DNA of 55,053 nucleotides, filler included, from Asterionella formosa (taxonomy: Eukaryota): assembly GCA_002256025.1 (NCBI GenBank). It is 4 parts of 4 records of this genome, joined end to end, with 100 filler letters (N's around TTAATTAATTAA, not from the genome) between each part and the next. Parts side by side here need not be neighbours in the genome. Positions count along the whole stretch, not along the records: positions 41,390 to 55,053 come from NKIB01006502.1; 3 more parts are not named here. One strand, given 5' to 3'. The translations under genes and the position numbers were made by a program. This document shows, piece after piece, positions 13,718 to 50,926 of this stretch (position 1 is its first letter; every line of letters begins with the position of its first letter). Under the pieces are notes generated by a model, which ran no database searches, was not told the DNA's origin, and was given only the letters and a program-made list of their open reading frames with translations.

Positions 13718-13817
13718 NNNNNNNNNNNNNNNNNNNNNNNNNNNNNNNNNNNNNNNNNNNNTTAATTAATTAANNNNNNNNNNNNNNNNNNNNNNNNNNN
13801 NNNNNNNNNNNNNNNNN
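13718..13817. other. Artificial contig spacer (N44-TTAATTAATTAA-N44)
   Basis: Exactly 100 nt with a six-frame stop linker at 13762-13773; identical to the other two spacers. Confidence 0.97.
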
Positions 13818-13988
13818 ATCAATGCGGCGCGGAGGCGGGGACAGAATAGACGCCATGTCGAAGATTCATTTCATTTCGTTTGCATTCAAAGTGAACAACT
13901 TAAAAGGCGAAAAAATAATTGAGTATAAAAATTTCAAATAAGAAACCCTAACGATGTCTGGTCTAACTGTCTTTTCGAAGTCTGTACA
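13818..13988 (-). mobile_element. Terminus of a young repeat element (family B), copy 1
   Basis: Reverse complement of 27337-27507 with only about 4 substitutions in 171 bp. Similarity stops at TGTACA. Confidence 0.85.
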
Positions 13989-14129
13989 TTGGTACTGGTA
14001 GTGGGCGCGTTCTGATAATGTAAATTTATGTTCGGTATATTATGTGTATTATAAACAAATCGTTGTACCCATAACCCCAAAATTTGTGTTTGTATTGACC
14101 AAATTAGGTAAACCTGGTAAGCACCCCCG

Positions 14130-14232
14130 AATTGAAAATCATTTTAGAAAAAGAATCCTAATCAGTCTTTTGTTTTCTTAGCTAGATTAATATGATTGTG
14201 TCACGATGCCGATCGACTGAAGCGAAATTAGC
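14130..14232 (+). repeat. Dispersed repeat family A, copy 2
   Basis: AATTGAAAATCATTTTAGAAAAAGAATCCTAATCAGTCTTTTGTTTTCTTAGCTA is identical to the reverse complement of the 26750-26808 copy. Confidence 0.85.
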
Positions 14233-22356: not shown

Positions 22357-22947
22357 GCGAAAGGATTCGGTTTTGCAATGAGTTCCGTGGTTGTGGAGCC
22401 TTCCAGCAACCTTTTCAATCAACGTTCGGGTGGGAGTGAATAGATTAAAACTAACAGTGATGGATCTGCATGCAATAGCACCGAAAATGACAAAGTTTGA
22501 CTCGCTGCGTAGTGGTTCAATTTTTGAAGGCCAAAATGTAAATAGAGTCGTGTGATCTTTAAATTGTTGTGAAGTAAAAAGTTCCCATAAAGTCAGTGTG
22601 TTTGGCCCTTTTTGTCGGACCATGAACGATCATAAATCGATCATGCCAAGGTCCGATTATAGTGATACTCCTTCTCAAACCAAGAACCAGAGTAAACCCA
22701 TATGTGTATTATGCACGCAAAATATATAGAAATGGGGCATTATGACTCGGACTTTTAGACTTGCATACATCAAACTACTCCAGGTCCATGAAGCACGATG
22801 GCGCCTACCCTAGATATGATTTATCAGTATTACTGCTATGAATAGATGGAATACTATTAAATATGTGTACCTTCCAGTCTATTAAATATCATTCCACTTT
22901 TCTAAATCGTCTACATTCTATTGTGGAATGCATGGATAATCATTACC

Positions 22948-26697: not shown

Positions 26698-26830
26698 ATC
26701 GACCCCTTGCTCATTTCGCTTCAATCAATCAGCATCATGGCAAAATATTAATTTAGCTAAGAAAACAAAAGACTGATTAGGATTCTTTTTCTAAAATGAT
26801 TTTCAATTGCTCATTTTATCAACAAACATA
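26698..26830 (-). repeat. Dispersed repeat family A, copy 3 (inverted)
   Basis: Reverse complement matches 9551-9679 and 14130-14232. Confidence 0.85.
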
Positions 26831-27336
26831 TGGGCACAAAAGGTTGCATGTGTGACTTGTAGTGTATTTACCGCAACTCACTGGTACCTGGTGTGTCAAG
26901 AATATTAGCCCGAGTCACAAGGATTGTGGACTCGGTTGTAATCGATCGAGTCGAATAATGCATTGCCACGTCAATTAGCTGCTTAACGAGATCAAAGATT
27001 GAAGATTTCTATGGAAATGTTAAGTGGAAACTCGAAGAGCAGAGTCTTAGTACAACGACATTGCAGGAAGCAAAGATGCATGGAAAGGAAACATTAAGTT
27101 TAGCTTATAATTTAATTTGAGTTTTAGATTATCAACCGAGGAAACAGTGTGTTAATTGACAGGAAGGTCAATTAGTCTATCTAGCAGGAAGGCTAGAAGC
27201 AGAGACAAGAGAGAAAGCAAGTGGTACTAGGTAGTACTACGATCACGTAAGAGTCTACGTGAAGAGAGTCCTAGCCCGCAGGAAGGAGTACGGACCATTT
27301 CAACACTGGTGGGTACAAGGTACCTGGTACCTCCAT

Positions 27337-27507
27337 TGTACAGACTTCGAAAAGACAATTAGACCAGAGATCGTTAGGGGTTCTTATTTGAAATTTTTAT
27401 ACTCAATTATTTTTTCGCCTTTGAAGTTGTTCACTTTGAATGCAAACGAAATGAAATGAATCTTCGACATGGCGTCTATTCTGTCCCCGCCTCCGCGCCG
27501 CATTGAT
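27337..27507 (+). mobile_element. Terminus of young repeat family B, copy 2, with ORF start running into the gap
   Basis: TGTACAGACTTCGAAAAGAC...ATGGCGTCTATTCTGTCCCCGCCTCCGCGCCGCATTGAT (MASILSPPPRRID). Near-identical inverted copy at 13818-13988. Confidence 0.85.
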
Positions 27508-27607
27508 NNNNNNNNNNNNNNNNNNNNNNNNNNNNNNNNNNNNNNNNNNNNTTAATTAATTAANNNNNNNNNNNNNNNNNNNNNNNNNNNNNNNNNNNNN
27601 NNNNNNN
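27508..27607. other. Artificial contig spacer
   Basis: 100 nt with TTAATTAATTAA at 27552-27563. Confidence 0.97.
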
Positions 27608-37920: not shown

Positions 37921-38357
37921 GATTCGGAACTTAAAAGAATGTAATTTATCTGAGAAATTATTTCACAAGGCGTGCATCGATTGGAAAAATGAACAAGCTT
38001 GTGTGCGACGTGACCAGCTGAAATCATCGATGGGATCAGTCACTCAATCGATATACATCCCCTTACAATTTCAAATCGATTCTGGCTCGATCGAAAGTCA
38101 TTATGGTTGCACATCTCTCGCCTTTCATCAATCTGATTTTTTGATGGTTGACGGCTTAAGCCCGAAGATTCAGACAAATAAAATTCACACCATCAACATT
38201 GTGCTGAGACTATAAAAAGATATTTTATGTAATACATTTGTTCATTAGGCTGCTTTCAGTCTCTGTTTGAGGCTCAATTTGAAAACTTCATTGTTACTTT
38301 CCTTCAATGTAGATACCGGGTAGATACTCGTAAAGTTGCAACACGCTCAGCGAGTAA

Positions 38358-38663
38358 CCCGGCTCGATCCACGTCCTTCAAAGAAGCCCTCTGTAGAAGC
38401 AATATGCAATGCAGGCTACGGGTACGTCGAATAGATTACCGGTAGTAAATTTAGCCAAGTACTGGTATAATGCTAAATAGAGATACATGTGCATCGTTTA
38501 GGGATATTGATTGTTGTTGGCCAGCGTTCTGACCTGTATTCACGTGTGTAATATTGTCTAGTACTAACAAAGAGATAAAGCTAAACAGACGACGAATAAT
38601 ATAGCTGGCATTTTGTGCACGCCCGGATTTATGACGAGCTGGTCATACACGTCGACAGTCTTA
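38358..38663 (+). repeat. Dispersed repeat family D, copy 1
   Basis: CCCGGCTCGATCC, CCCTCTGTAGAAGCAATAT, TGTGCATCGTTT, GTTGGCCAGCGT and TTTTGTGCACGCCCGGATTTATGAC recur collinearly in reverse complement at 49844-50199. Confidence 0.85.
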
Positions 38664-39751
38664 TCAGCCTGCCTTTTGAGGTTACGAAACAGGCAATCGG
38701 CGATGTATTGTCGCCGTTCTCGTGTTAAATACTTCTACATATGCCTTTTGTCTGACAAATGATCAACGATAAGGGAGGGGGTTGCAGAGCAAACATTCCA
38801 ATCGGGGCGCGATTCTACGAAAAACGTGCTAAAATAAATAAATCGAGGTCAGGTTCACCAAATTCTAAGACTACTTAGAATATGAATATATATTATATAC
38901 ACCATTTGGTTCGGAATAATTTTTAAATAGAAAAGGCAGTTAGCCAGATAATTATTGGAGGTTGCGCTTCATGTGAGACAGTGACCTAAAGTTTGGTTGC
39001 AACAATACTGGAAAAGAGGAGTAAATTATTGGATAGCACTTTTTCTCGCTACAGATTAAAAGGGCTATACATGTGAAAGACAAAAAAATTGGAATTTGAA
39101 CTTACTAATTTTTGGTCGTGTGTCAGTCACAACATGAAAAATGCCGCAGACACAGATCAGTCTGGACTGGCTGGAAGGGCTCAATACTGCTTCAATGGAA
39201 TGAAGTACATCACATCGAAGCATACCCATAAAGCATACACAACATATCCAAGTCATCATTTTCAAGTCTACGCATGCACTTTGGAGGCGGGAACTGTCAG
39301 CATCCACTACCCTTTTCCCGTAATTTTGTGTGCCTTTGGCCAGCCCAAAAACTGTATGCTCAGCAGTTTTGGTCAATCTTGACAATCTTCTTGGCAATTC
39401 TTCTTCTTCCTTTTTGTAATAAGGACTACATACTACCAATGCCTCCAAAACGAGAATGCGAAAGCCGATCATACCATCAACCTCCCTCCTTACAAAAGTG
39501 TTTATATGCAAGCATGTCATCTTCTGCTGTGACTGCCTGAAAGGAGCAATAATAACACTCTATTTAGCCACTATTTTGTCGCCCGTATCCCTTCAAAACT
39601 GATTTGGGAAGGCCGCTTTGCGACATGGACATTCAACAGCACCTCGAAATTTGTAGTGGCTGTAGAAAACCACCACTGTACATGTTATTTGTTTTTGTTA
39701 TTCATGATCTGCGCACACTTCCCCTCCACTATGCTCATTACACCATTTTTC

Positions 39752-41389: not shown

Positions 41390-41754
41390 TTATCTAGGTG
41401 CAGATGGGTTAGGTGTGTATTATATATCTGGCTGGATACCCATACTTTTCTACACATTTGCGAGACTAAACAATACTGGTTGCTTCGTCTCATATCCTAC
41501 AGTCGTAACTGTACCAGGTACCTGGTACCAGGTACTCCGAGTACCTGGTATTTCATTTTACATGGTGCGTGTATATGATGCTGTGTATCATAGGATGCAT
41601 ATTGCCATAGCACCACACCAGTGGAATATTCTCACCAGCATACGGTACTACCCGGTAGATACTAAGATTATAAAATGAATACATATATGATGGCTCGACA
41701 GCTGCCTATAACGGACTGACGTACGGACATTCTACAGCAAGTGTAGACATTTAC

Positions 41755-41902
41755 TGCCGCGAGACAATCACCTTTCGCGAAAGGTTGTTAGAGACTCACC
41801 TACGCTAACAAAACTAGGGAGGCACAGGTCTTATTGGCAGGTAGCACAATGAAATATTTGCCTAGAAATAGGGGAGTACGAATGGGCTATAAAACATGCT
41901 AA
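41755..41902 (+). mobile_element. 5'-truncated copy of tRNA-headed SINE-like element
   Basis: CACCTTTCGCGAAAGGT...ACTCACCTAC..TAACAAAACTAGGGA..CACAGGTCTT...GCAGGTAGCACAATGA...GGGCTATAAAACAT matches the 3' ~150 bp of the two full copies. Confidence 0.85.
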
Positions 41903-43929
41903 GCAACTTTTACATTTAAGCTATCCAATAATCGCATTTTCATTCCAGTCCCGCCCTTTTACACTAAAGTCTCGCTTTCACTTTGATTTCCTTGTTACAA
42001 GTTCTATAAATCACTGCCTATGAGATGTAGATGCACAATAATAATAGAAAAGGGCCTGCTATGACATCATAAAACCAACATGTGCGTGTGGCCACAAGAA
42101 TAATAGCTTCGACCACATCAATGCCACCTACAAAAGGTATCATTATGTAATCCTTGTGATCTGTTTTTTTAGTAAGATATAGTAGTTGCTGTTGGCTGGT
42201 TGGCAGCTTCCAAGAGTGCCATAATCATGAGGGCAAAATCAAATGATCGATGTGACAGTACTGCTGCCGAAAACTGATTATGTTCTAACGGACTCTTTCT
42301 GTCACCTTCCAATGGTCGTATCAGCTCCTCGTGATTGCAATGTACTGGTGGTGTTGTTCTGGTTGGATTCTTGTTTATCTTCTGTCAGGACTACAATATC
42401 AGTGGCATCCATCAAATCTGGATGTTCCGACATCCAGAACCCAAAATACTGAATAAGGAACATAACGAAATTGCAGGATAAAGGTGCATGAAATGAATCC
42501 TGAAGAAAGAAGTATTTAATGACAGCATCAATTAGGAAAAAGTCTAATCCATTTCTCCCCCAAAACATGTATAAACAGTGTTCAATTTTGTACCATCGTA
42601 GCATTCACGTTGACAGTACATGCATTATGTGACCACTGCTAATAGCATAAGGCAAACTTGTTTAAACCTGTTAAACTTAAAATACTGGGACACCGGTAGG
42701 CGTGATGCTGCCAACACGTGCCATATTTTAAGTTATGTTATGCATTATGAACTGAGGCTGAGCAGGGCTCTTGTTCAAAAGTATGACGGTATGCTGGTAT
42801 GTACTATGCCTGTTGAGATATATTTATGAAATTTGAGCGCGTTGTAGGAGCATACCGATATCTACTGGGCACTTGTACAACAACAAAATATATAAGTATT
42901 CAGGTAATGAGAAGTATATGTATTTGTAATTCAAAAATTGACTGATGGTGGGTTGGGAAGCACACGAAAGCAATCAAACACCGCCCACATATTCCAGCAA
43001 TGATACTACCATTCAAATTTATAATTGCTTTGCTCAAATATCGGCGCATGAACACAGTTGAGGTACCATTAGAATTGCAGCAACCTGTTTGTTCAACGCG
43101 AATTGTAACAATTACATTAGCTCTATTTTATAAAAAGAAATATAGAACCAATTTCAGTTATACATGCTGGTGTCCTTGCTATTGCCGCTGTGTATGCTGT
43201 ATGTATATTGTATATATTGTTTGCTCGTTTGTGATAAATACATACACTTCCTGTTTATCTTTGTCTTGATATTGAGTCACTGTGCCAATTGACGATCAAT
43301 TTGTTCTCATGAAATCTAAACAGAAATAGACATTACAAACTTACATAGAAAATTGATATAAATATTGATTGATTTGCTAAATATTTGCTCAGAAAAAGCA
43401 ATCACGCATTCCCTGGACTAACTTGTTATGCATTTTCAGACATTTTTGAGCAAAAAGTGTAGGGGACCTGCAACTGCATTGCAACAGCTACAACAAGGAG
43501 ATGAAGAGAGGAGACAGCATGATTCCAATCAAGGACAAGAGGACGACGTAGTAGTACCTGCACATTCAAATATCATGCTGCTGGATAGCATTTACCACCA
43601 GAGATTGAAGAAGAAGGCAGAAGTATTAGGGAATGCGATGCACAAAAAGCGAAGAAAGACGAAGCAAATAAAATGAAGTCAATACAGCGCATGCATTTCA
43701 CAAATATCAATGGTAACACAAGAACATCAACAATGAGCTGACACCAGTCTTAGCATGAAGTCTTTCTATTATATCTATATAAACATGAGGACCAGCTTCT
43801 AGCTAGCACCGGAGTTGCTAGGAGCGCAAATCAGATATATCACTGATGATATTGATTAAAAACCCGTTCAAGAAAGCTCGATCAGTGATATGCAGTTTTC
43901 TTGAAAGGAAGTCTCTACAGGATTACATC

Positions 43930-44740
43930 CAATTAAATTTGAGGACTTGAAGCCTACAGACTTTGCAAAGTCTCTTGGGACCCTCAGTAATCCAGTAAAA
44001 GGCTGTCTGCTTGTCAGAAGATGCATATAAACAAGAAAACATCACTTTACAACCTGTTCAAGAAGTATAAGATGAACGCTACAGACGACTTTGATGATGA
44101 GCTGAAAAAACTCATTGCTGGCGTCAAAAGAATTGCAAGTAGGGCATTGACAATTGACCTGTACCGAAAAATAAACATATGGTTGATTGAAGATGGCTCT
44201 CCATCAGCTGCTTTTGCACGTGGATTTTGATGTCTAACTTGGAATTAGATGTGCCGTGCTGATAGTACTGATGGTGTCTGTATCATGCATTTGGTTTGGA
44301 GTCAAGATGCTGTGGAGATTCGATTTTCTCACACAAAAATGATCGAGATGGCTCTAAGAATTTCAAGCCCCAACACTGCTGCTACAAAAGCCCTGAAGAT
44401 TTTGCATTGTGTCCAATAACTGCATTGTTTGATTACATGCCATTCTTCCCGAAAATTCTACAAGATACAGGATACAGGGTATTTTGTTTCCTGGTGAGGC
44501 AGAGCAGGCAGGGAGATTGATTCAGAAGAATTATAAAGAGATAGCTAAATGAACATGAAGGCGATCGAGATGGATAGTTTGAGGTGGAAGGTATTGGTTC
44601 TCATGCAACAACATATGCACCAAGTGGCTCTATAGCAAGTCCATCAATTGTAGCAATCAACAATCGAGTTGGTTGGGCATTAGGCATTGTGCAAGATGTC
44701 TATATGCTTTATGAAAGGCAGGTGACCACTATGTTGGTTA
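43930..44740 (+). mobile_element. Degenerate Crypton (CryptonS-like) tyrosine recombinase
   Basis: Across stops and frameshifts: LTWN*MCRADS, HLVWSQDAVEIRFSH, KNDRDG, CPITALFDY, GIGSH(deleted)ATTYAPSG...PSIVAINNRVGWALGIVQDVYMLYE-AGDHYVG. This is the motif order I recall for stramenopile Crypton recombinases. Confidence 0.75.
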
Positions 44741-45036
44741 CATAATGGTGGTGTTGTGGTACAAACGAATTGGCGATGCACCATGTATTACCTGCAACAA
44801 AACAACAACTACTGCCCGCCGGGTATGTTGATGCAATGAGACGTGGCGCTGCACCAGTCCCAGTTGCCGGAGCCATGCTGCCACCATCAGCCTCAGCTGA
44901 AGAGGATGACGAGGATGAAGTTGCGGGTATGGAAGAGTGATATATGTGTTTGCACAATAAATCGATGACAGTTGACACAAAAAATTGGAGAAAATATGGA
45001 AAACGAGGTATTATTTTCTAACCGTTCACCATTAAA

Positions 45037-45405
45037 AGTTAGTATGTTTTATAGCCCAATCATACTCCCCTCTTTCAAGGCAAGTATATCATTGTGCTAC
45101 CTGCTGACAAGACCTGTGATTCCCTAGTTTTGTTAGTGTAGGTGAGTCCCCAACCACCTTTCGCGAAAGGTGATCATCTTCGCCGCAGCATTAGGGGAAA
45201 CTCCGACCGTCTAGGAAGGCGGCACAAGCTGCTTGTAGGGGGGCAAACCACTATTTATTGCACACCAGGCAAGAACGTGCGGGATGGTAAGGAGTGTGGG
45301 AGTCAAACTCAACAATTGCTTCTCAAAACGTTTGCGGGAATCGAACCCCACAACCTCAGATCAAAGGCAACTTGCTTGACCACTAAACCATTCCCTACCG
45401 GTTAT
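45037..45405 (-). mobile_element. Full-length tRNA-derived SINE-like element (~370 bp) with 7-bp flanking direct repeat
   Basis: The minus strand starts with A box TGGTTTAGTGG and B box/T-arm GTGGGGTTCGATTCCCGC, has a second B-box-like GAGTTTGACTCCC, and ends CATACTAACT. It is flanked by CATTAAA at 45030-45036 and 45406-45412. Confidence 0.8.
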
Positions 45406-47863
45406 CATTAAATAAAATATCTACATGATGAAAAATATACGAATGGCTAAAGACCAATAAAGTGCAAAATGAACGACTTAAAAAGTTCGATATCGTAAGA
45501 TATATCCTTCCAATAGTTAAAATGATACTTGCATGCATAAGTCGAACTCTATTCGAAGGGTTTTAATTGGGGTTGGCTGAATATTTTTCTAATTTTAGTC
45601 CAAAAAGGGATAATAAAGTGAGTGGTCTTAAGCAGTTTTGACTGGTACCAGGAACAAACTGGTTACAAAGGTGTTCTTTGCCCCTGTCAACCACTACAAG
45701 AAGGCAAAATCAAGCAGAATAAACCTAGCAGCACGGCAAATCCTCCTTCTCATTACATGCACAAAGAATTTTTGATACAAGGTGAAACTACGTAACTATG
45801 TCAGTGCATACTTCTACACCAAAGAAGCCACGCTAATTTACTAGCTACTGGTATAACAACTGGTGAACTACAACGAGATTCTACACTGAATATTTCAATT
45901 GCAATCTACTTACTTACTACCTCTTCACACAGTCACACCCTCAAGATTGCAATCCTCCTCCTAATGTTCCTGACAATATGGATCCCTGGCTGGTCAAGAA
46001 TATTACTTAAATCTATTTTGCTCCATTCAACGACATCATCCCTCACTGCCTCATTTGGATTAAACCTATCTCCTGTGTATCTTCCTGGGCAAACCCATAG
46101 TGATCTTTCACCAACCATCTGAAACTTGATATACCTCCTACTTCAGCTACAATGTAAATCACACCAGTGCCACTTACCCATTCTCCTATCGGTCTTGTTT
46201 CTGCACTTTCTGGATATCATTGACATCATCAGCACCACTCCCTTCAGAAACGTTTCATGTCTCCTTCTCCTATTGGTCATGTTAGACATTAACATTGTCC
46301 CCATCGACAAACCATTCAGGAACTTTTCATGTCTCCTTCCTGGTACCTGGTACTGGCTGTTCGGCGCAGGCGTAGTACATCATACCACCAAGGGATTAAC
46401 AGGAGTATACCAGGTAACCTGGTAAGGAGTACCACCTAAAAACTGAGAGTCGTCCTTATATCTTTCTTTACTGAGAGGCATCCTTAAACTGGGTAATCAC
46501 ACGTTTCGGGACGAATATCAGAGATACGTTGTCGTTTCTTGGTGGCATGTATGCAAGAGCAATGTTTATACTTGTGAGTTGAGCTTTCGTGGCCGTGCTT
46601 GAGATTAATAGGTCGAAAGGTAGCTGTCGCAAAATTTTTGGTTATATCAGATTACCCTATTGAGTCGGCAATGCATTTTTGACACTTTCAAATATCAGCT
46701 AATTAAATTATTTAGTGATTCTTTGTTAATTATATAATGTCTTTGTTTCTATATTTATTGACTTCGATTGATCATCAATGTCACATGGAGTGCTGTTGCT
46801 CCGTCCTCTTCACCACGCATTGATACAAGACAGCGATCATACCACCTACTATAAATCACAGTGGTGCTGCCTGATGATGAACAAACAGAAAGCGGTCGTG
46901 CCTTTGGTGAGCACACGAAGAATGCACCGAGTAGATGAAAATGTACGCACTGATGGCAGAATCTTTCCGGTGTATAATTATCATCCGACTGAAAAATTTT
47001 ATATGCTTTGCCTGCATTATCATCACAACCATTGAAAGAAATGAAAATTGTTTATTTTATTATTAGTCTTTTGAGTAGAATAGATTAATCGCTAGTATAT
47101 TATGAAATGAATTTCATTCTAGCTGCTTGTGTACTCGTTTAGATATAGTCAAATATGTAAAATCGGAAAAATCACAATGACGCTCGACACTATCGATGAT
47201 TTCTCGATCCCCCCTCTTTGTTGCATCAAGATGCAAAGCTACCGAGCAGATGCCGTTCTACGACATAACATAATCTACACAAGATAAAATTAAAAACCAA
47301 TTATTGATTCATAATTCAATATTCAAACAAAGCTGTCTTTCATCATTGCTTGTTATGGCTTTGTCGATCAGCAACACTGTCATGACATTTACCCGGTACC
47401 TGGTACACAGCTTCATCACCAGCATTCATTGTATGGCCTAAATATTTATGTATGAGGATTGTCAAACAACAAGTGGTAGGCTGTCACGCAATAGATGTAA
47501 TTAACTATTGCTTAAACCATCACTAAAATAAATAACTGAAGTTGCATTTGACCCGAAACCAACTAATTAAAGCGGAGTATCGTCGAAGCCAACTATTATT
47601 ATGGCAATAAAATATCGAAAGGGACAATAAATAAATGGTGTAGTAATCTGTAACGGGCTAATAATTTTGTGGCATGAACAAGTTCTCTCGCAACAATAGG
47701 ATAATCAGAAAAAATGGAAGATTAAAATTTCCTCATGTATGTATTAAAAACCAAGATACAAGAGTCATCCTGCCTTATGAGCCTTATGAGGCCAAACGAT
47801 GACATCCGAAACTTTTATTTCTCAAGAAATATTGATATCACCCTAAATATAATTAGATCTAGT

Positions 47864-48233
47864 GGTAAGGTAATGGCTCAGTGGTTTACTTAGCAAGCTG
47901 CCTTTGATCTGAGGTTGTGAGGTTCGATTCTCGCAAACTTTTTGAGAATCAAATGCTGGGTTTGACTCCCACACTCCTTACTATCCCATACGGTCTTGCC
48001 TGGTGTGCAAGAAATAGTGGTTTGCCCCCCTACAAGCAGCTTGTGCCACCTTCCTAGGCTATCGGAGTTTCCCTAATGCTGCGGCTACGACAATAACCTT
48101 TCACAAAAGGTGGTTAGGAACTCACCTACGCTTACAAAACTAGGGAAGCACAGGTCTTGTCAGCAGGTAGCACAATGAAATACTTGCCTTTAAAGAGAAG
48201 GGAGTACAAATGGACTATAAAACATACTAACTA
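47864..48233 (+). mobile_element. Full-length tRNA-derived SINE-like element, second copy
   Basis: A box TGGCTCAGTGG (47874-47884), B box GGTTCGATTC (47921-47930). The body is collinear with the 45037-45405 copy and ends CATACTAACTA. Confidence 0.82.
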
Positions 48234-49843
48234 GGACAAGCTACAATAACCTTTGTACTTGCTTCAACATTACCGTGAAATCGGATTAAATAATTTGAGT
48301 CATAACATGAGGTAAAATAAGGATGACTCTCAATTTTTAGATGGTACCTGATGGTACTCCCCCCTCTGTTCATGTATAGTTGCAACCAAGCTTTAGATCA
48401 CTGCCTCTCATGAAGCCTAACCTCTAATAATTATCCGGCTAACAGCCCTTCCTATTTAAAAATTATTAAGAAACAAATGGTGTATTGGTATATAATATAT
48501 GTTCTAAGCATTATAGAATTAGGTGAACTAATTGTTGTTTCGCCTTGACAATGGCCTTAACCGACCGTCGCTTTTCTTTGTTCCTTGCTGTGATCTCGCA
48601 GATCTATCACCGGTTCAAGCATTGTAAACACTTATTTCCTTTATGAGTATTTACCTTTTTTTGCATTGGTGTGACCATAAGCACTAGCAATTGACTTTCT
48701 AATACTGAGCGAAATGCACAGGACATTTGGTCTAAGGTGGAGGAATGGACCATGAGAAGTATGATGAAACTCAAAACTAGGGAAGATAGTACATGCTATA
48801 ATATAATCAATAACATACAGTAGTAAGTGGAAAGATTACTAGCTAAGTTCGATGATATAGCTCCATTCTAAAACATGTGTACATGGTGGAGCAGTACAAT
48901 GCCTGAGACAAGTCAACCTTCTTGCACTTTGCTACAAGTATATCAAAGTATGAAAGTATGAATACCGAAAAACATAGTGCTTGTATCCCAGCTTCTTTTT
49001 CTTTCCTCCAATGATTTTCATGAACAGAAGTATAGTGGTATATATGTGTCTTCAGAACACTCAAGTGCAGAATATAAGTTTGAATGGATACACATTCCTA
49101 TTCCAAGACACAATAACAAAGATCAGCACACATCCCCAATAACAGGCATCAAAAATTTCATCCATGCATCCTTATATCAGAAATTTCATCCATGCATCCT
49201 TGATTGACAAAGGCATTCTATTGTCAACACGAAAAAGTTCAATTAATCCTCCCTTCCAAGACACTCTGATCAATTGTCTCACTTAAACCACTTCCAATTT
49301 TGATTTCGACTTCTTCTTCCCACAAAGTTTTCAATATTTCAATGGATCTTATCCTTCTTGTGAATCTTGTCGAAAGTTGTAGATATCTTCCTCCTATCCT
49401 TGTAATTTTATTGAAATGATTAGACATTCACCTTGGCAAGCTTTTGACAATTCTGACAAGTTGTCTCTTTGTACTATTTAGACATGGGCTTGGATTGACG
49501 GGCTTGGATTTACGCCAACATGCAAGGATTTACTTCTGTGCCTTGATTTGTTCATCTTGTTATTGTTGGTTTTGTTCCTTTTCCTATTCCTTTCCTTTCT
49601 TAACTGAAAATCAAATCCATGCATTGAACAATCCCATGGAATATAAGAGTGCTGGCCAGGACTGTTCTCTACTATCAGGAAGGAGACATTGCTGGTTGAT
49701 AATATAGCATGGCTTAGATGGTGAGGATCAAACAATGACAAATGGAGGGATTCATCATGGTGAGAGAGGTTATCAAGTGCAAGGTTGTGGCTGAGCGTAA
49801 ATGGCATGCATGTGTTGCTAAGAGAGTCATCATGATTCATTAT

Positions 49844-50199
49844 TAAAGACCATCAACATGCATGACCAGCTTGTCATAAATCCGGGCGTGCACAAAACTA
49901 GCTACATTATTCGACGTCTTTAGAACGAAATAATTTTTGACCGGGTACGCATGCTCGTTTCTTTTTTTAGCTCTGCTCCATGTATCTACTCTTTGGTAGT
50001 ATTTGCCCATATTACTCACACATTCACAGGTCAGGACGCTGGCCAACGAAAATCAATAGCCCGAAACGATGCACAAGTATCGCTATTTAGGGTTGTTCTC
50101 GCCTAAATAGACTGAACTAACCGGTTTTCCCCGTCTCGCGTAGAATATGGATATTGCTTCTACAGAGGGTTTCTTTGGAAGGATTTGGATCGAGCCGGG
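49844..50199 (-). repeat. Dispersed repeat family D, copy 2
   Basis: Reverse-complement homology to 38358-38663 with indels. Confidence 0.85.
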
Positions 50200-50926
50200 A
50201 TAGTCTCTGAAACTATCCATGAACGTGGGGAGTATTGCCGGCGATTTGACGCATTTATTTTCAACCAGAGGGACCAGGTACTTGATTCCTCCTCACCAGG
50301 TACCTTCAGGTACTCAGGGACGAGTGCCACTAGTATAGTATTGGCGGAACAATACCAGTGCCTATAAGTGCATACGACAACAAATGATTACAAGATCAAA
50401 CAAACATGCGGTTTGGACAAGCGTCCACTTTTCTTGATAGTTCAATTTTTGGGGAGGAGACAAAACACCCCAATTTTCTGCCCTGATTAAGCAGCTAAGG
50501 TACCAGTACCGGTAGTCGTGGTTCTGCCTCAAATGAGAACATGAATACTACCGGGACAGGAGGTACAAATTTATCTTACCGTATTCTTCCTCTGCTATGT
50601 TCAACTGGATGAGCTAAGACGTTCTACATGTATGAAGGTATGACAATCAGTTTACCAGGTAGATTACCTTTGTACGAGGGTAGCTGCATAAAAATGTTAT
50701 GGTGTGTTAACTAAACGAGAAGCGCGAACCCTAAAACACACGTCGCGCTAGCATAAAATAACGAAAAAATATGGGAGTTGAAAAATGTTTTGTCCGTGCT
50801 CTTGTTTTGAATTTTGTTTAAAGTAAATATGCGACAGCAATCGCAAATGTGATAACAAATTCGTGAGCTTTACACCTTATTCGTTCACCATTTCGATATC
50901 ACTCTGCAACTAATTGTGCCTTCATC

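What the first reader, a model, noticed from the sequence alone, without database searches (positions are those of the whole stretch)
41755..48233. Highly structured tRNA-headed SINE-like family, three copies in 6.5 kb
Seen: two ~370 bp full copies (45037-45405 minus, 47864-48233 plus) and one 5'-truncated copy (41755-41902) share the same 3' end. The head has Pol III A and B boxes with D- and T-arm pairing, a CTTTGA loop remnant (Gln-like) and a second B-box-like motif. The body has many potential stems: ACAAGC-A-GCTTGT, GAGTTTCCCC/GGGGACTC, the palindrome ACCTTTCGCGAAAGGT, GCAGGTA/TACTTGC, CCTT-GAAA-GAGG and terminal AGTATG/CATACT before a TAAC tail. One copy has a 7-bp flanking repeat CATTAAA. 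Differences such as CGCG to CACA suggest CpG decay. Known: a tRNA head, 5' truncation and TSD are hallmarks of LINE-mobilised SINEs, and to my knowledge SINEs are little described in diatoms. Inference: a probably undescribed SINE whose folded body may be a LINE-recognition or catalytic RNA module.
Basis: partly seen in the sequence, partly recalled or inferred. Interest (0 to 1): 0.75.

Follow-up and report, generated by a model that had tools for sequence, protein, structure and literature searches.

The report
Diatom SINE borrowing a LINE's tail
The three repeats are copies of an abundant short jumping element with a tRNA-like front end whose last 70 or so bases match the end of a resident LINE retrotransposon that probably copies it, a familiar design little described in diatoms, and its middle shows no sign of being a catalytic RNA.

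Summary
The repeats are real: a ~360-nt tRNA-headed SINE with several hundred copies (721 BLAST candidates; 116 exact tail 16-mers). Full-length copies have 12-19-bp target duplications (17 of 31; control 0 of 420), and empty sites exist. The last ~70 nt match the 3' end of a decayed RT-RNase H LINE family (51 of 70 columns; 0 of 1000 shuffles). That tail holds the one well-supported compensated pair, closing a GAAA hairpin. A sister lineage keeps head and body but swaps the tail at about the same point. Not supported: a highly structured or catalytic body (z about 0 to -1.2; no ribozyme match; two proposed stems broken in the sister lineage), a Gln origin (Ala-like, Arg-like 3' half), and 5' truncation as a hallmark (0 of 22 short copies have duplications). 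Unexplained: a T6-7 run right behind the head that should stop Pol III. The scan already noted tRNA SINEs with LINE-like and swapped tails elsewhere in this genome. New member of a known kind.

The parts
45034..45396 (-). SINE copy B, full length, U.G subfamily, 93.7% to the family majority
45397..45412 (-).
45021..45036 (-). 3' target-site duplication of copy B (overlaps the T tail)
45379..45390 (-). Pol III A box / D-arm of copy B (q7-18)
   Evidence: sequence; coordinates
45336..45346 (-). Pol III B box / T-arm of copy B (q51-61)
   Evidence: sequence
45325..45331 (-). internal T-run behind the head (q66-72): T7 in the family majority, T4 in this copy; aligns with the acceptor 3' strand of tRNA-Ala(AGC)
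45295..45324 (-). second variable-loop/T-arm (q73-102), best match host tRNA-Arg 3' half
45104..45292 (-). body of unknown origin (q105-293), including the 10-bp hairpin at 45152-45175
45034..45103 (-). LINE-derived tail of copy B (q294-363) with GAAA hairpin at 45069-45080, then TACTAAC and T4
47868..48232 (+). SINE copy C, full length, 89% to majority; no target duplication found; A box 47874-47885, B box 47922-47932, T-run 47937-47943, tail from 48164 (hairpin damaged)
41754..41911 (+). SINE copy A, 5'-incomplete (from about q209), A-U subfamily; T4 at 41908-41911; no convincing duplication
41838..41902 (+). LINE-derived tail of copy A; best hit in the window of a profile built only from LINE ends (E 0.0016); hairpin 41861-41872

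Best explanation
A non-autonomous retroposon (tRNA SINE) of four modules: a tRNA-like head with A and B boxes, a duplicated T-arm, a ~190-nt body of unknown origin, and a ~70-nt tail taken from the 3' end of a resident LINE clade (RT, RNase H, CCHC; relatives also carry an APE endonuclease). Shown: dispersed copies, fixed ends, target duplications, empty sites, tail homology, subfamilies, tail exchange. Inferred from established SINE/LINE biology: Pol III starts at the head and some transcripts pass the internal T-run; the LINE protein recognises the tail, including a GAAA-loop hairpin; it nicks AT-rich DNA with a ~16-bp stagger; the RNA's terminal U-run anneals to the A-rich primer, and target-primed reverse transcription makes the copy. 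Copies then decay, fastest at CpG. The body is most likely a passenger.
For: 721 candidates, all 40 scored near full length. Duplications in 20 of 32 top copies (control 5 of 992) and 17 of 31 tail-selected full copies (control 0 of 420). Contigs skip 377 nt at the L004 site in run X1 and join 1482 to 1863 in X16. 36 distinct LINE 3' ends stop in the same register. A LINE-only profile gives copy A's tail as its best window hit (E 0.0016). A SINE-only profile hits 11 LINE ends, all at q294-360 (E 0.004-0.5). Subfamily majorities versus the majority of 15 LINE ends: 51 of 70, 51 of 74 and 41 of 59 columns, 0 of 1000 shuffles each; the most diverged subfamily is closest to the LINE. Four independent 5'-truncated LINE insertions have duplications of at least 16 bp, three starting with T. 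Pair q320:325 is U.G, A-U or U-A in 77 of 85 rows. The sister lineage changes sequence after q297.
Against: Tail identity is about 70%, so the LINE copies found may be cousins of the true partner, and all are decayed. Copy C's tail is not hit by the LINE profile at E<=10, copy B's only at E 0.19. The covariation reflects about two historical events, not 50. The LINE duplication search had no control, and one of its six hits was a microsatellite. The internal run is at least T5 in 51 of 65 rows, while host nuclear tRNA genes are followed by T4-T6 runs. No Pol III transcript was shown: RNA-library contigs hold the family but cannot show ends or strand. A young, near-identical LINE family (L035) shows no tail match but was not excluded as a helper.
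Confidence: 0.8

Rival explanations
1. SINE as above, but the body is a conserved functional RNA fold (self-cleaving ribozyme or protein-binding module).
For: Two windows fold better than shuffles (q221-270 z -2.6, q301-350 z -2.8; 2 of 16 windows, uncorrected). The body is kept in both tail lineages with only 12 fixed differences in 297 nt; D-stem and q123:141 changes keep pairing.
Against: Whole-element z about 0 to -1.2. RNAalifold covariation term -0.46 of -50.4 kcal/mol; of 77 pairs only the GAAA-closing pair has many double changes (8 of 30). The sister lineage deletes 2 nt of one stem (13 of 13 and 11 of 13 rows) and breaks q227:240 in 11 of 13. No Rfam ribozyme at E<=10; no HDV-like descriptor hit, no hammerhead core. 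An internal cleavage would remove the promoter from new copies (argument in PMC5786205, passage seen).
Confidence: 0.07
2. The element is an RTE-mobilised SINE like Au, with a bipartite RTE 5'/3' UTR body.
For: T-tail, duplications starting with T (19 of 20, partly an effect of the T tail) and an upstream T-rich patch resemble PMC6007223 (Results part 1 read).
Against: The T excess lies 33-40 nt before the element, about 17-24 nt before the duplication (46% T against 25-38% in other bins, 49 flanks), not at about -10. No RTE was found (DUF6451 0 matches; RVT_1; APE), though these searches also missed the LINE that was later found. The tail matches another LINE. No body match in 40 LINE-bearing loci.
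Confidence: 0.05
3. The retroposed RNA is not a direct Pol III product: it is cut from longer Pol II transcripts (for example by RNase P at the tRNA-like head), which would make the internal T-run harmless.
For: T6-7 persists in both lineages and a T5 run sits at the same place in the sister 250-bp SINE. D-stem pairing is kept between lineages.
Against: A and B boxes are well kept and the element ends in its own T4 run. The acceptor stem is weak (G.U pairs) and ARAGORN and Rfam see no tRNA. Internal T-runs occur in mollusc SINEs, where read-through is invoked (PMC4758252, passage).
Confidence: 0.08

Closest known systems
tRNA-derived SINEs (Repbase SINE2/tRNA) with LINE-derived 3' tails, the stringent type (e.g. 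eel UnaSINE/UnaL2; Chlamydomonas SINEX-3_CR/L1-1_CR; PMC3747384, passages)
   Same: tRNA head with A/B boxes, unrelated body, ~70-80-nt tail shared with a LINE, stem-loop with compensatory change in the tail, target duplications.
   Different: Host is a diatom; the partner is an RT-RNase H LINE whose relatives have ~1,900-aa ORFs; second T-arm; T6-7 run behind the head; tail ends in T4 while the LINE ends in (TA)n.
Au-like SINEs of plants, mobilised by RTE LINEs (PMC6007223, abstract and Results part 1)
   Same: Short T tail, duplication starting with T, T-rich patch upstream, hairpin in the LINE-shared tail.
   Different: T-rich patch is about 20 nt, not 10 nt, upstream; partner is not an RTE; no sequence comparison with Au was possible.
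SINE superfamilies that exchange tails (PMC5786205, part 2 of 5 and passages; mollusc Vhc/Snail SINEs, PMC4758252, passages)
   Same: Same head and body with alternative tails; internal T-runs tolerated.
   Different: Body has no detected LINE 5' UTR origin; the T-run is followed by G, not by the C said to favour read-through; known central domains (CORE, V, Deu, Ceph) were not compared.
Ambal clade of non-LTR retrotransposons (listed in PMC4455052; reported in a diatom genome, PMC12803021; domain make-up recalled, not read)
   Same: Long diatom LINE with APE, RT and RNase H.
   Different: No reference Ambal sequence was available, so clade membership is untested.

Membership tests
tRNA-derived SINE | Short (100-600 bp), non-coding, dispersed, many copies | tested here: met
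   363 nt; 721 candidates; 116 exact tail matches, control 0
tRNA-derived SINE | tRNA-related head with A and B boxes | tested here: met
   alignments to host tRNA genes; below ARAGORN and Rfam thresholds
tRNA-derived SINE | Variable-length target-site duplications, no terminal repeats | tested here: met
   12-19 bp; 17 of 31, control 0 of 420; empty sites
tRNA-derived SINE | Not the end or LTR of a longer element | tested here: met
   upstream flanks of 60 tail hits are unrelated apart from duplicates and host repeats
tRNA-derived SINE | 5'-truncated insertions with duplications | tested here: not met
   0 of 22 5'-incomplete copies, control 1 of 294; common in SINEs but not required
tRNA-derived SINE | Transcribed by RNA polymerase III | not testable with these tools
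   only contigs were available; the internal T-run argues for caution
Stringent SINE/LINE pair | 3' end homologous to the 3' end of a resident LINE | tested here: met
Stringent SINE/LINE pair | Stem-loop in the shared tail with compensatory change | tested here: met
   q320:325 three pair types, 77 of 85 rows; CTA-GAAA-TAG core in 23 of 36 LINE ends; about two independent events
Stringent SINE/LINE pair | Tail required for mobilisation by the LINE protein | not testable with these tools
   needs a retrotransposition assay
RTE-mobilised / bipartite SINE | T-stretch about 10 nt before a T-starting duplication | tested here: inconclusive
   T start yes; T excess at about -17 to -24
RTE-mobilised / bipartite SINE | Body and tail from RTE 5' and 3' UTRs | tested here: not met
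   no RTE found; tail matches another LINE; no body match in 40 loci
Self-cleaving ribozymes (HDV-like, hammerhead, twister, pistol) | Catalytic-core sequence and nested helices | tested here: not met
   Rfam none; descriptors: HDV 0, hammerhead core 0; one loose twister and two antisense pistol regex hits, the twister hit rejected by eye (P2 cannot form, G325 varies), the pistol hits not examined further
tRNA-Gln-derived head | Closest to tRNA-Gln | tested here: inconclusive
   no tRNA-Gln among 47 sequences; best nuclear matches Ala(AGC) overall and Arg for both T-arms
Ambal clade (partner LINE) | RT phylogeny with Ambal references | not testable with these tools
   no reference sequences; domains only
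Already catalogued family (Repbase, Dfam, SINEBase) | Sequence match to a library entry | not testable with these tools

The most novel reading that the evidence does not exclude
Diatom SINEs carry a built-in strong Pol III terminator behind the tRNA head (T6-7 in two lineages, T5 in a sister family) and still spread as full-length RNAs. Either diatom Pol III has a context-dependent anti-termination route that attenuates these elements and releases a ~70-nt tRNA-like RNA, or the mobile RNA is cut from Pol II transcripts by tRNA-processing enzymes. It would also be the first defined SINE partner of the long RNase H-bearing diatom LINEs in the literature I could search.
Probability: 0.15. Interest if true: 0.6.

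Novelty: new member of a known kind. Interest (0 to 1): 0.3.

Why it matters
In the passages I read, diatom SINEs appear only as annotation counts (13 putative copies in one species). This family gives a worked example with promoter, subfamilies, tail exchange and a candidate partner LINE. It pins LINE recognition to a ~70-nt tail with one hairpin, a direct assay target for a little-studied LINE clade. The conserved internal T-run makes Pol III termination in diatoms testable. The design itself is textbook.

Tried and rejected
Ribozyme in the body: Rfam and descriptors negative; weak PreQ1, tRNA-Sec, tmRNA and snoRNA hits are far below gathering scores. RTE partner: searches found none. Young GC-rich LINE (L035, L069): no similarity to the SINE. 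L061, a long RT frame with a 14-nt chance match, is telomerase. L083's foreign upstream 250 nt is an unrelated repeat whose other 10 copies lack the tail. Shared flanks of L084/L111/L137 and L082/L093/L127 are host repeats. Bipartite origin of the body: no profile hit between q103 and q291 in 40 LINE-bearing loci, only two of which (L247, L279) reach upstream of the RT ORF. By eye the 250-bp sister SINE's tail resembles the LINE end, but the LINE profile hit neither it (0 of 19 copies) nor the alternative tail (0 of 14 loci). Outside sources for the body: viral contigs 0, phages 0, tail pattern in metagenomes 0. Small-share RNA runs (X16, X18) say nothing on expression. The sigma-70 scan is irrelevant to a eukaryote. 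Earlier-finding look-ups by sequence returned nothing.
Full report
Observation. The three repeats are present and homologous. Positions 'q' count along the 363-nt family majority made from 32 copies. Copy B is 45396-45034 (minus), copy C 47868-48232, copy A about q209 to the end at 41754-41911. The 7-bp repeat is part of a 16-bp duplication, 13 of 16 alike; copies A and C have none. CpG positions are substituted in 24% of cells against 5-6% elsewhere (91 rows).

A dispersed retroposon. Copy C finds 721 candidates in the 68-Mb assembly; 40 were scored, all near full length at 83-87%. An exact tail 16-mer occurs 116 times, the reversed control 0 times. With 12 of 32 sampled copies carrying that word, this implies at least about 300 copies. 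I fetched 60 of the 116 (from the first 100 listed, skipping places already held): 31 are full length, 2 more are full with an insertion, 22 lack 5' sequence and 5 end at a contig edge. Duplications of 12-19 bp flank 20 of 32 top copies (control 5 of 992) and 17 of 31 tail-selected full copies (control 0 of 420), but 0 of 22 incomplete ones (control 1 of 294; a narrower search gave 11 of 31 and 0 of 24). Short copies such as A are therefore probably later deletions. Contigs of runs X1 and X16 join the two flanks of copy L004 without the element; that flank is itself a repeat, so these are paralogous empty sites.

Head. ARAGORN and Rfam see no tRNA, but A and B boxes are clear. Against 47 tRNA sequences from the assembly, the top global scores went to apparently organellar Ala and Gly genes and the best nuclear one to Ala(AGC). 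The 3' half scores about equally with Arg(TCT), Ala(TGC) and Arg(CCT), and the second T-arm (q73-102) best with Arg. No tRNA-Gln was in the set, so Gln is unsupported rather than excluded. Of 29 distinct exact head matches, 10 belong to this family and 19 to a ~250-bp sister SINE that ends its head like tRNA-Ala.

Tail and partner. My first guess, an RTE partner, found no support. An earlier scan note pointed to an RNase H LINE; an RNase H search gave one locus, and its 3' region found a family whose copies end in one register. It encodes RT and RNase H, both weak Pfam hits below cut-off, and a CCHC motif; homologues are ~1,900-aa proteins, some with an APE domain. 'Ambal-like' is recalled, not tested. 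A profile of 36 LINE ends ranks copy A's tail first in the window (E 0.0016) and copy B's third (E 0.19), and misses copy C. The reciprocal SINE profile hits 11 LINE ends, all at q294-360. Subfamily majorities match the majority of 15 LINE ends at 51 of 70, 51 of 74 and 41 of 59 columns, with 0 of 1000 shuffles reaching each score. Four independent truncated LINE insertions have duplications of 16 bp or more (no control; one further hit was a microsatellite). Whether the shared tail is coding in the LINE is unclear: homologues mostly end earlier, yet the frame stays open into it.

Subfamilies and tail exchange. The pair closing the GAAA loop (q320:325) splits copies into A-U (30 rows, 92.1% to their majority; the LINE state), U-A (19, 93.3%) and U.G (27, 94.7%) groups; 8 of 85 rows mismatch. 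This is real compensation but only about two events. A metagenome contig showed the same head and body with another tail. That tail has 80 candidates in the genome; 14 fetched copies diverge from the family after q297, several with visible duplications. The swap point agrees with the start of LINE homology. Its partner was not found.

Structure. Whole copies fold like shuffles. Two of 16 windows stand out (z -2.6, -2.8), one being the tail hairpin; the best 30-nt hairpin is matched by 7 of 60 shuffles. RNAalifold on 30 copies gives a covariation term of -0.46. The swapped-tail lineage has 12 fixed differences in q1-297: changes in the D-stem and at q123:141 keep pairing, but a 2-nt deletion removes the ACAAG/CTTGT stem and q227:240 of the long hairpin is broken. 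No ribozyme family or core was found. Copies are too similar to exclude a weakly constrained fold.

Mechanism. Most likely (0.8) Pol III transcribes from the head, the LINE protein binds the tail, and target-primed reverse transcription at an AT-rich nick produces a ~16-bp duplication starting with T, the RNA's U-run pairing with the primer. These steps are inferred from stringent SINE/LINE pairs (PMC3747384, passages). One fact resists this: a T-run follows the head, at least T4 in 61 of 65 rows and at least T6 in 42, also in the swapped-tail lineage, with T5 in the sister SINE. Host tRNA genes end at T4-T6, and human Pol III stops fully at T6 or more (PMC5725217, abstract). The run aligns with the acceptor strand of tRNA-Ala, so it may have arisen by C-to-T change. 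Mollusc SINEs tolerate internal runs followed by C (PMC4758252, passage); here G follows. None of the 10 head hits of this family ended at the run. RNA-library contigs hold the family but cannot show ends.

Comparison and novelty. SINEs are reported in Phaeodactylum (13 putative copies, PMC5859163), Cyclotella (PMC7466962), Skeletonema (cited in PMC8147415) and Pleurosigma (PMC12803021); I saw passages only and no supplements, where family sequences might stand. Searches listed no paper describing a diatom SINE-LINE pair; the library lacks most subscription journals and Repbase Reports, and Repbase, Dfam and SINEBase could not be searched. Tail exchange is described in PMC5786205 (part 2 of 5 and passages); PMC6007223 (abstract, Results part 1) gave the RTE signature tested above. 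This scan already noted tRNA SINEs with LINE-like and swapped tails in this genome; I cannot tell which notes concern this same family, since sequence look-ups were empty. The family is held by runs of 16 studies, mostly freshwater. Verdict: a real SINE, a new member of a known kind, interest 0.3.

Noticed in passing
L251-L278 (e.g. L270:1500-1750); G000 many contigs: A ~250-bp tRNA-Ala-type SINE shares the first 25 nt of the head and has a T5 run just behind its head (19 of 29 head hits).
   Followed up: partly
L299, L301-L314: Sister lineage with the same head and body and a different ~75-nt tail; 80 candidates in the genome; partner LINE unknown.
   Followed up: partly
window 45038-45044 (minus), 48225-48231: The youngest subfamily ends in TACTAAC plus a T-run, and several duplications begin TAG, so new insertions resemble a branch point with a 3' splice site (motif recalled).
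   Followed up: no
window 22782-22836: Weak hit of the LINE-end profile (E 0.017); possibly a very decayed LINE or SINE tail.
   Followed up: partly
L035, L069 and many short contigs: A young GC-rich LINE (APE, RT, C-terminal cysteine motif) in dozens of 97-100% identical contigs; no similarity to the SINE.
   Followed up: partly
L061:3334-6507 (minus): Telomerase reverse transcriptase, 1058-aa open frame.
   Followed up: no
window 43400-44900: Broken reading frames between copies A and B that look by eye like a decayed Crypton-type recombinase; not tested.
   Followed up: no
window 38347-39019 with 48363-50210; 13718-14232 with 26709-27607: Other dispersed inverted repeat pairs of 30-275 nt; some long matches are assembly gaps (N runs).
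   Followed up: no
L082, L093, L127, L228: One host repeat ends immediately before several 5'-incomplete SINE copies and one LINE fragment, suggesting secondary insertions that cut them.
   Followed up: partly
L006:859-1595: Two SINE copies head to tail, separated and flanked by the same ~15-bp duplication.
   Followed up: no
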